Part shown: one piece after another, positions 55,590 to 55,850 of the stretch
How positions within the stretch are numbered: the stretch's first letter is position 1
How the letters are laid out: every line of letters starts with the position of its first letter
Assembly (NCBI RefSeq): GCF_009914755.1
Contig: NC_060933.1
Source: the human T2T-CHM13v2.0 reference genome, Homo sapiens
Reading direction: 5' to 3' (one strand)
DNA: 64,000 nt
Program-made: the position numbers and the translations under genes
Notes under the pieces: model-generated
What the model saw: the letters and a program-made list of their open reading frames with translations, nothing else
Databases searched by the model: none
What the model was told of the DNA's origin: nothing

Positions 55590-55775
55590 GCCCTGATTGG
55601 ATATAAGGGTGTTCATCGCGGATGTTCCACCAATGAGGCAATCAGCTCTTCCGCCGCGTCCGCAAAGGCGAGATTTCGCGCGTGTTTGAATCCCTGCTCT
55701 GCGACCCATTCACAGAGATGTCTCGAGCGCAAGCCTTCTCTGCAGTTTTCTCAGCTGCACCGTGGAGGTGAGAGC
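55590..55775 (+). promoter_or_regulatory. Putative NF-Y + E2F/CDE-CHR cell-cycle-type promoter with a first-exon splice donor
   Basis: ATTGG 55596-55600, CCAAT 55630-55634, TTTCGCGC 55674-55681, CHR TTTGAA 55685-55690, dense CpGs, donor GAG|GTGAGA at 55767/55768. Confidence 0.6.
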
Positions 55776-55850
55776 GGCACAGCCCTCCCCTGGTAGCAAT
55801 GCGGACCTGGGAGGCACTGGGTGAAAAGCACCAGCTTCGGTCGGGCTGGA
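55665..55850 (+). mobile_element. CpG-enriched MIR overlapping the promoter
   Basis: gtttgaatccctgctctgcgac...gcaagccttctctgcagttttctcagctgcaccgtggag...gtgaaaagcacc follows the MIR consensus GGTTCGAATCCCGGCTCTGCCAC...GCAAG...CCTCAGTTTCCTCATCTGTAAAATGGGG...GTAAAGCGC. Confidence 0.7.

What the first reader, a model, noticed from the sequence alone, without database searches (positions are those of the whole stretch)
55590..55850. MIR SINE apparently converted into an NF-Y + CDE/CHR (DREAM/MuvB) cell-cycle promoter with no coding gene attached
Seen: an inverted CCAAT (CTGATTGG, core 55596) and a CCAAT (55630) 34 bp apart, then TTTCGCG-CGTG-TTTGAA (55674-55690) in a CpG-dense patch. Established: G2/M promoters such as CDK1, CCNA2 and CDC25C carry CCAAT boxes spaced about 32-33 bp apart plus a GC-rich CDE, a 4-nt spacer and a CHR (typically TTTGAA) bound by MuvB/LIN54; TTTCGCGC is also the classical E2F site. 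Seen: the TTTGAA lies in GTTTGAATCC, the position of the MIR B-box GGTTCGAATCC, and MIR-like sequence continues to ~55850. Inference: one CpG transition (TTCGAA to TTTGAA) turned a Pol III B-box into a CHR. The MIR is CpG-rich, unlike the other MIRs here, which suggests it is unmethylated in the germline. It may drive a cell-cycle-regulated or meiotic (A-MYB/MuvB) non-coding RNA. More generally, SINE B-boxes would be one mutation away from CHR elements.
Basis: partly seen in the sequence, partly recalled or inferred. Interest (0 to 1): 0.85.

Follow-up and report, generated by a model that had tools for sequence, protein, structure and literature searches.

The report
Small CpG-rich promoter-like patch beside MIR
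A 130-270 bp CpG-rich patch in a lncRNA intron carries the CCAAT/E2F/TTTGAA motif layout of cell-cycle promoters and touches an old MIR repeat, but the repeat supplies only the TTTGAA, which is its normal decayed state, and no activity could be tested.

Summary
A 131-bp patch has 13 CpGs, o/e 1.27, against 0.23 for the window.

The MIR call holds only for 55680-55782. The 18-mer at the TTTGAA recurs 193 times in the genome against 0 for a reversed control. A 60-copy model then hits B-box plus core (E 4.5e-5). Both CCAAT boxes and most of the E2F site lie outside detectable MIR sequence.

The "conversion" is the default fate. Of 621 MIR heads in the same context, 594 read TTTGAA or TTCAAA and 27 read TTCGAA. 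TTCGAA is itself a published CHR variant. The published CDE pattern fails at the 4-nt spacing and passes at 3 nt.

The whole layout is rare: five sites genome-wide, controls 0. Two of them are the AURKB and UNG promoters.

My reading is a promoter-like orphan CpG patch at about 0.5, cell-cycle regulation about 0.3, and a required MIR-derived CHR about 0.13. No expression, binding, methylation or conservation data could be reached.

The parts
55610..55740 (.). CpG-dense patch. The wider patch with at least 8 CpGs per 130 bp runs 55541-55808.
   Evidence: It has 13 CpGs in 131 bp, GC 0.565, o/e 1.27, against window o/e 0.23. It is one of three such patches in 64 kb. The 201-bp stretch 55600-55800 has GC 0.567 and o/e 0.93. 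The surrounding 1 kb has o/e only 0.45.
55596..55600 (-). Distal CCAAT box, inverted (CTGATTGG on the + strand)
   Evidence: It lies outside detectable MIR similarity.
55630..55634 (+). Proximal CCAAT box (ACCAATGAG), 34 bp from the distal box and 55 bp from TTTGAA
   Evidence: It lies outside detectable MIR similarity.
55674..55681 (+). E2F-type octamer TTTCGCGC
   Evidence: It is the only TTTSSCGC in the window on either strand. TTCGCGC matches the published E2F pattern TT[CG]5 and ends 3 nt before TTTGAA.
55685..55690 (+). TTTGAA, a CHR-type hexamer, which is the decayed core of the MIR B-box
   Evidence: The 18-mer 55685-55702 recurs 193 times genome-wide against 0 for the reversed control. 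The ancestral CpG column reads TG here.
55680..55781 (+). Fragment of a MIR-type SINE running from the B-box through the core domain. The head upstream of the B-box and the 3' tail were not detected.
   Evidence: nhmmer with a model of 60 genomic copies gives E 4.5e-5, 16.8 bits, model positions 83-193. The part after the 18-mer scores E 0.19 on its own and is colinear. Identity to the majority base is 61 of 100 columns.

Best explanation
The site is a small orphan CpG-rich patch of about 130-270 bp with the layout of an NF-Y/E2F-type Pol II promoter: two CCAAT boxes 34 bp apart, then an E2F octamer, then TTTGAA. It abuts a 5'-truncated or 5'-unrecognisable, strongly decayed MIR.

Most likely it is kept free of germline methylation because factors occupy it. 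This is inferred from CpG o/e 1.27 and from CpGs gained at non-ancestral positions. It most likely acts as an unannotated weak promoter or promoter-like regulatory element. In the canonical geometry the start site would fall at about 55690-55730 on the + strand. An alternative start for the minus-strand lncRNA LOC105376275 is also possible.

NF-Y would give basal activity and the E2F site would link it to proliferation. The MIR contributes only the TTTGAA, which is the usual decay product of its B-box CpG.

Shown: the motifs, the CpG density, the limits of the MIR, and the rarity of the layout. Inferred: hypomethylation, factor binding, transcription, and any cell-cycle periodicity.
For: - CpG density: 13 CpGs in 131 bp, o/e 1.27, against 0.23 for the window. 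The same frame holds 0-5 CpGs (mean 1.07) in 60 of 60 sampled MIR heads.
- CpG gain: the CpGs in the MIR part lie at columns where the copies have CC, TG, CC, TT, GC and AA, so they are gains. Substitutions lean W>S, 16 against 9.
- E2F: this is the only strict E2F octamer in the 64 kb.
- Rarity: the full layout appeared in 0 of 200 window shuffles. Genome-wide it matches five sites over four orientation patterns, with reversed controls 0 in all four.
- Company: of the three CpG-dense sites among those five, the other two are the AURKB promoter and the UNG promoter region. Aurkb is named as a TTTGAA-CHR gene in PMC4176359. UNG is listed among p53-DREAM targets in PMC5729532.
- Geometry: ATTGG-34-CCAAT-55-TTTGAA here, against ATTGG-36-CCAAT-(33-CCAAT-22)-TTTGAA in AURKB.
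Against: - Annotation: the supplied RefSeq table has no start site or functional element here. No paper names the lncRNA.
- Size: the patch is tiny. The surrounding 1 kb has o/e 0.45, against 0.66 and 0.73 at AURKB and UNG.
- Post hoc pattern: the composite was written from this site, so its own match counts for nothing. Single-CCAAT versions are mostly background, 24 against 13 control and 149 against 112 control.
- Chance matches: two of the five full matches look like chance, one CpG-free and one AT-rich.
- Splicing: no strong splice donor follows on either strand. The best is GAG|GTGAGA at 55767, 7 of 9 on a crude score. There is no ORF of note.
- Not testable here: conservation, methylation, CAGE and ChIP.
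Confidence: 0.5

Rival explanations
1. The site is a true CDE/CHR promoter: repressed by DREAM in G0/G1 and activated by MMB/FOXM1-MuvB (or A-MYB-MuvB in meiosis) through LIN54 binding to the MIR-derived TTTGAA. NF-Y acts as activator, and the promoter drives a periodic non-coding RNA.
For: - The canonical TTTGAA lies 55 bp after the proximal CCAAT, and the boxes are 34 bp apart. The literature gives about 33 bp and places the CHR on or near the start site.
- An E2F/CDE-like GC run lies directly upstream.
- The layout is shared genome-wide with AURKB and UNG.
- CDEs are dispensable: only 23% of CHR promoters have one.
Against: - The published CDE pattern [CGT][CG]5 fails at the defining 4-nt spacing (TTCGCG) and passes only at 2-3 nt. 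It passes at 4 nt in AURKB and UNG.
- The hexamer carries little information. There are 53 CHR hexamers in the window, one per 1.2 kb, and 594 of 621 MIR heads carry one by default.
- Published CHR calls needed phastCons >= 0.9 and a start site within about 200 bp. Neither is known here.
- No annotated start site is present.
Confidence: 0.13
2. There is no promoter. Either the patch is a different kind of non-methylated island, such as a Polycomb-marked or poised-enhancer orphan CpG island in a developmental gene desert, or it is a neutral product of GC-biased substitution. In both cases the CCAAT/E2F/TTTGAA layout is a coincidence picked out after the fact.
For: - Three CpG-dense patches cluster within 13.7 kb (44340-45170, 55541-55808, 57579-58020). 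This suggests a regional property rather than a single promoter.
- Each motif part alone is at background frequency.
- Two of the five genome-wide composites look like chance.
- W>S excess in the MIR part is +7, which is within the range of the 60 copies, -11 to +13.
- Nothing is annotated here.
Against: - CpG o/e 1.27 is hard to reach without protection from methylation.
- The joint layout was seen in 0 of 200 shuffles, and reversed controls were 0 in all four genome-wide patterns.
- The other two CpG-dense matches are both cell-cycle gene promoters.
Confidence: 0.35

Closest known systems
[quoted passage not shown] Passages read in PMC4176359 and PMC3287175.
   Same: Two CCAAT boxes 34 bp apart, a GC-rich E2F-like element directly upstream of a canonical TTTGAA, and a CpG-rich setting. 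The distal-box-to-CHR geometry is almost the same as in the AURKB promoter of this genome.
   Different: The GC element is 3 nt from the CHR, not 4. The third, proximal CCAAT box of AURKB is absent. There is no annotated start site or gene. The CpG patch is far smaller. Binding, periodic expression and conservation are untested.
Orphan CpG islands acting as unannotated or alternative promoters (PMC2944787, PMC5927659; search listing and abstract starts only)
   Same: A CpG-rich patch away from any annotated protein-coding start, inside a lncRNA intron. It meets the classical minimal CpG-island numbers over 201 bp (the criteria are recalled).
   Different: It is much shorter than typical islands, and the 1 kb around it has o/e 0.45. 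Its non-methylated state is inferred only from sequence.
MIR SINEs exapted as regulatory DNA (MIR-derived enhancers, PMC4090950, search listing and abstract start only; MIR structure and Pol III B-box, PMC5381342, passages)
   Same: A MIR fragment lies inside a putative regulatory element, and its B-box remnant coincides with a transcription-factor motif.
   Different: Only about 100 bp is recognisably MIR. The NF-Y and E2F motifs are not in it. The B-box breaks the invariant C of GWTCRAnnC, and ARAGORN finds no tRNA-like gene, so Pol III or TFIIIC use is unlikely.

Membership tests
CDE/CHR (DREAM/MuvB) cell-cycle promoter | CHR hexamer TTTGAA or a validated variant | tested here: met
   TTTGAA is at 55685-55690. 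The variants are listed in PMC4176359.
CDE/CHR (DREAM/MuvB) cell-cycle promoter | CDE [CGT][CG]5 exactly 4 nt upstream of the CHR (pattern of PMC4176359) | tested here: not met
   At 4 nt the hexamer is TTCGCG, which fails. At 3 nt TCGCGC passes, and TTCGCGC also matches E2F TT[CG]5. The same paper says a CDE is optional, present in 23% of CHR promoters.
CDE/CHR (DREAM/MuvB) cell-cycle promoter | CCAAT boxes about 33 bp apart upstream of the CHR | tested here: met
   ATTGG 55596 and CCAAT 55630 are 34 bp apart, and the proximal box is 55 bp before the CHR. The spacing of about 33 bp is from PMC3287175.
CDE/CHR (DREAM/MuvB) cell-cycle promoter | CHR on or within about 200 bp of a transcription start site | not testable with these tools
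   The supplied annotation has no start here. The nearest is the minus-strand lncRNA start at 57652, 1.96 kb away. No CAGE or PRO-cap data are available.
CDE/CHR (DREAM/MuvB) cell-cycle promoter | Phylogenetic conservation of the CHR (phastCons >= 0.9 in PMC4176359) | not testable with these tools
   No other vertebrate genome or conservation track is held. The criterion was read.
CDE/CHR (DREAM/MuvB) cell-cycle promoter | DREAM, MMB or FOXM1 binding and periodic expression | not testable with these tools
   No ChIP or expression data are held. No paper names LOC105376275.
MIR (tRNA-derived core-SINE) | B-box segment of the tRNA-related head | tested here: met
   The 18-mer is shared with 192 other places against 0 for the control. 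The candidate has 4 of 23 mismatches to the recalled head segment, best in the window together with 48988-49010. The family name MIR is my recall. No RepeatMasker or Dfam was available.
MIR (tRNA-derived core-SINE) | Conserved central (core) domain downstream of the B-box | tested here: inconclusive
   The model of the downstream part alone gives 55737-55782, E 0.19, 6.0 bits. It is colinear and on the same strand. The full model gives E 4.5e-5, but it includes the 18-mer used to choose the copies.
MIR (tRNA-derived core-SINE) | tRNA-related head with A-box upstream of the B-box, and a LINE-related 3' end | tested here: not met
   The head model gives no alignment on 55560-55690 even at E <= 1000. 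The full-model match ends at 55781. The MIR structure is from PMC5381342.
CpG island | At least 200 bp, GC >= 0.5, CpG o/e >= 0.6 (classical criteria, recalled) | tested here: met
   55600-55800 is 201 bp with GC 0.567 and o/e 0.93. The stricter 500-bp criteria are not met: 55000-56000 has o/e 0.415.
Pol III-transcribed SINE or tRNA-like gene | Intact B-box GWTCRAnnC and a tRNA-like fold | tested here: not met
   GTTTGAATC has T in place of the invariant C. ARAGORN finds 0 genes in 55000-56500. Rfam gives no relevant match in 54500-58500.

The most novel reading that the evidence does not exclude
An unannotated, germline-unmethylated promoter of a periodic (G2/M or meiotic) non-coding RNA that works like the AURKB promoter. 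Its CHR was donated by the decayed B-box of a MIR. More widely, tRNA-derived SINE heads would be a standing reservoir of CHR sites that become functional wherever NF-Y/E2F-bearing CpG-rich DNA arises next to them. At least 594 perfect-context copies read TTTGAA or TTCAAA, and the intact TTCGAA already binds DREAM in vitro.
Probability: 0.12. Interest if true: 0.55.

Novelty: new member of a known kind. Interest (0 to 1): 0.35.

Why it matters
If active, this would be one more orphan promoter with cell-cycle grammar in the region upstream of MVB12B. It would also be a clean example of a repeat remnant lending one motif to a promoter that was otherwise built from non-repeat DNA.

The general idea that SINE B-boxes seed CHR sites is true as sequence arithmetic but explains little. 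The hexamer occurs about every 1.2 kb anyway. Nearly every MIR head already carries it, yet none of the 60 other heads sampled sits in a CpG-dense patch or beside a CCAAT pair.

The useful by-product is a specific, testable candidate. It is one of only five genome-wide matches to a layout shared with the AURKB and UNG promoters.

Tried and rejected
- Self-BLAST of 55560-55900 against the window found no other copy.
- An own-genome DNA search found only the site itself, so this is not a duplicated promoter or a young repeat.
- nhmmer with a single window MIR as query found only itself.
- A crude model from 6 window copies did not hit the candidate at E <= 50.
- Pairwise local alignments to 6 window MIRs gave weak z-scores. 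The best were 2.47 (2 of 200 shuffles reach it) and 2.24, and the others ranged from -0.26 to 1.53. The MIR call therefore rests.
- ARAGORN and Rfam gave nothing relevant.
- Coding potential was rejected. There is no ORF of note in 54800-58200. A 17-codon ATG frame from 55718 to the GT at 55768 was seen by eye only.
- The donor scan gave no site scoring 8 of 9 or better downstream of the element.
- Literature searches: LOC105376275 gave 0 papers. LIN54 + B-box + SINE gave 0 papers. None of the 12 listed papers from the LIN54 / MIR elements / retrotransposon / TTCGAA search held LIN54. A search for a printed MIR core string gave one unrelated paper.
- The supplement of PMC4176359 holds promoter sequences of protein-coding genes, so it cannot contain this locus. 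File 1 was not searched.
- The chr18 and chr21 composite sites were not identified further.

Full report
**1. Observation**

ATTGG (inside CTGATTGG) starts at 55596 and CCAAT at 55630, 34 bp apart. TTTCGCGC lies at 55674-55681 and TTTGAA at 55685-55690.

The stretch 55610-55740 has 13 CpGs in 131 bp (GC 0.565, CpG o/e 1.27). The whole window has o/e 0.23. Only two other places in the 64 kb reach a similar density, 44340-45170 and 57579-58020. The second covers the annotated start of the minus-strand lncRNA LOC105376275.

Only 3 nt (GTG) separate the E2F octamer from TTTGAA.

**2. Is it a MIR?**

The first tests were weak.
- Self-BLAST found no copy in the window.
- A single-copy nhmmer query found only itself.
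- A crude 6-copy window model missed the site.
- Pairwise alignments reached z = 2.5 at best.

Whole-genome pattern searches settled it. The site's own 18-mer TTTGAATCCCNGCTCTGC occurs 193 times (95 + 98) in the assembly, against 0 for the reversed control. It is therefore a word of a repeat family.

From the first 30 listed loci of that search and the first 30 of the TTCAAA search (60 of 594 copies, all on chromosomes 1-3), I built an alignment and HMMs.
- The majority sequence has the tRNA-type B-box and the central domain that I recall as MIR. No RepeatMasker or Dfam was available, so the name is my recall. The MIR layout of head with A and B boxes, core domain and LINE-related tail is described in PMC5381342 (passages).
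- The full model hits 55680-55781 on the + strand (E 4.5e-5, 16.8 bits, model positions 83-193). This includes the 18-mer used to choose the copies.
- The model of the part after the 18-mer hits 55737-55782 on its own (E 0.19 for the whole window). That hit is on the right strand and in the right order.
- The model of the head upstream of the B-box finds nothing there, even at E <= 1000 on 55560-55690 alone.

So about 100 bp is MIR, covering the B-box through the core. Similarity stops near 55782, not 55850. Both CCAAT boxes and most of the E2F site lie in DNA with no recognisable MIR similarity. That upstream DNA is single-copy in the genome.

**3. The 'conversion' of the B-box**

In the fixed context ATCCCNGCTCTGC the genome holds 27 copies reading TTCGAA, 193 reading TTTGAA and 401 reading TTCAAA. 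Reversed controls are 0 in all three searches.

TTCGAA is a palindrome, so either CpG transition yields the CHR hexamer on one strand. Thus 594 of 621 copies (96%) already carry it. The change here is the normal decay of a methylated CpG, not a special event.

The paper that defined CHR variants reports three relevant points (PMC4176359, passages):
- TTCGAA itself binds DREAM above background and occurs in validated promoters.
- Inverse TTCAAA sites are functional.
- About 45% of non-palindromic CHRs are in reverse orientation.

A CHR hexamer also occurs 53 times in this window, once per 1.2 kb. A SINE is not needed as a source of CHR hexamers, and the general claim explains little.

In the 131-bp frame, 60 of 60 sampled MIR heads have 0-5 CpGs (mean 1.07). 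0 of 60 have a CCAAT pair at 31-36 bp, and 7 of 60 have a single box within 100 bp upstream.

**4. The CpG richness**

It has 6 CpGs in 102 bp (o/e 0.73). The 10 other MIR hits in the window have 0-3 CpGs (o/e 0-0.58).

The CpGs are not retained ancestral ones.
- The B-box CpG column reads TG here.
- The CpGs at 55679, 55681, 55702, 55724, 55728 and 55761 fall on columns where the 60 copies mostly read CC, TG, CC, TT, GC and AA. The alignment is confident only for some of these.
- Substitutions against the majority base lean W>S, 16 against 9. The 60 copies average 8.3 against 8.6, and the net excess is within their range.
- The densest part, 10 CpGs in 55617-55681, lies almost entirely upstream of the MIR segment.

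This fits a patch that became protected from methylation after the MIR had begun to decay. It does not fit a MIR that has been unmethylated since insertion.

**5. Fit to the published grammar**

- Neighbouring CCAAT boxes lie about 33 bp apart (PMC3287175, passages).
- A GC-rich CDE lies 4 nt upstream of the CHR, the canonical CHR is TTTGAA, and the CHR sits on or near the start site (PMC4176359).

I applied that paper's search patterns, CDE [CGT][CG]5 with a 4-bp spacer and E2F TT[CG]5.
- At 4 nt the hexamer is TTCGCG, which fails.
- At 3 nt TCGCGC passes.
- TTCGCGC is an E2F match ending 3 nt before the CHR.

The defining spacing is therefore missed by one base. A CDE is present in only 23% of CHR promoters, so this does not exclude a CHR function. 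The strict E2F octamer TTTSSCGC occurs only once in the window, at this site.

**6. Chance and base rate**

In the window each part is at background.
- CCAAT pairs at 31-36 bp: 3 observed, 4.3 expected.
- Pair plus TTTGAA: 1 observed, 0.5 expected.
- GC hexamer plus TTTGAA: 2 observed, 1.0 expected.
- The joint layout arose in 0 of 200 dinucleotide shuffles. It was defined after the fact.

Genome-wide, single-box versions are mostly background.
- CCAAT-N25-55-TTSSSSS-NNN-TTTGAA: 24 sites, against 13 for the control.
- The 4-nt CDE version: 149 sites, against 112 for the control.

I ran the two-box layout in all four box orientations. It gives 3 + 0 + 2 + 0 = 5 sites in 3.1 Gb, with reversed controls 0 in all four. 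The five sites are:
- This candidate.
- A site on contig 17, 3.3 kb upstream on the same strand of an exon whose translation best matches human Aurora kinase B (4af3_A, E 5e-37).
- A site on contig 12, between an ORF that I recognise from memory as the UNG2 first exon and an exon matching PDB uracil-DNA glycosylase chains (E about 1e-7). It is inverse to UNG.
- A CpG-free site on contig 18.
- An AT-rich site on contig 21.

Aurkb is named as a TTTGAA-CHR gene in PMC4176359. UNG appears in the table of p53-DREAM targets in PMC5729532 (one passage seen).

Of the three CpG-dense matches, the two with known genes are both cell-cycle promoters.

The differences remain.
- AURKB and UNG pass the 4-nt CDE test. 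The candidate does not.
- They sit in full islands (1-kb o/e 0.66 and 0.73) at coding-gene starts. The candidate's 1-kb o/e is 0.45.
- AURKB has a third CCAAT box 22 bp before the CHR, which the candidate lacks.

**7. What it most likely is**

My best reading, at about 0.5, is a small orphan CpG-rich, promoter-like element. NF-Y and E2F-type factors would keep it unmethylated. The MIR remnant forms its 3' flank and supplies the TTTGAA.

In the canonical geometry a start would fall at about 55690-55730 on the + strand. An alternative start for the minus-strand lncRNA, in whose first intron the site lies 1.9 kb from its CpG-rich start, is equally open.

I put any cell-cycle periodicity at about 0.3. 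I put a required, LIN54-bound, MIR-derived CHR at about 0.13.

The main rival, at about 0.35, is that this is not a promoter. It could be another kind of non-methylated island, given the cluster of three CpG patches within 13.7 kb, or a neutral patch with coincidental motifs.

Pol III or TFIIIC use is unlikely. The B-box breaks the invariant C of GWTCRAnnC, and ARAGORN and Rfam find nothing. Nothing supports coding or a clear first exon.

**8. Limits**

No expression, start-site, chromatin, ChIP, methylation, variation or cross-species data could be reached. No paper names the lncRNA. The two searches joining LIN54 with SINE or MIR terms found nothing on the B-box/CHR idea. Only the searched library is covered by that statement.

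**9. Verdict**

The motif layout is genuinely promoter-like and rare. The 'MIR converted into a promoter' framing overstates the repeat's role, and the B-box change is ordinary. This is a new member of known kinds, orphan CpG-island promoters and repeat-assisted regulatory DNA, with function still to be shown.

Noticed in passing
window 57579-58020: A CpG-dense patch (30 CpGs in 442 bp, GC 0.55, o/e 0.91) covers the annotated start (57652, minus strand) of lncRNA LOC105376275. It holds several TAAT-type AT-rich motifs, seen by eye.
   Followed up: partly
window 44340-45170: The largest CpG-rich stretch of the window: 35 CpGs in 44340-44843 plus 18 in 44887-45170, GC 0.64-0.68. The supplied table has no annotation there.
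   Followed up: no
genome-wide: MIR heads in the fixed context read TTCAAA twice as often as TTTGAA (401 against 193). This could reflect subfamily source sequences or strand-asymmetric CpG decay.
   Followed up: no
window 48791-49051(-), 51969-52158(+), 52458-52560(-), 54625-54850(-), 30538-30703(+), 23338-23503(-), 53763-53839(-), 28928-29100(-), 56311-56356(-), 5470-5585(-): Other MIR-type copies found with the 60-copy model (E 1.9e-28 to 0.0012). All are CpG-poor.
   Followed up: yes
window 55290-55375 (+): By eye this looks like the 3' tail of another MIR-type repeat, AT-rich with ...GAATGAATGAATTAATGAG. The 60-copy model does not hit it.
   Followed up: no
L063 (G000:C12:109067800-109077799), positions about 4959-5044, minus strand: The UNG promoter region holds an inverse two-ATTGG / CGGCGG-CTAT-TTTGAA layout. 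It lies between an ORF I recognise from memory as the UNG2 first exon and the exon that matches PDB uracil-DNA glycosylase chains.
   Followed up: partly
G000:C6:25913431-25913484(+) and G000:C6:26139936-26139990(-): Two near-identical matches to the single-box 4-nt pattern, each with two CCAAT boxes, a CGCGCGGG-type run and TTTGAA. They look like paralogous promoters.
   Followed up: no
window 58306-58496: Weak Rfam matches far below the gathering scores: mir-297 at E 0.092 and sno_ZL1 at E 0.25. They are probably low-complexity sequence.
   Followed up: no
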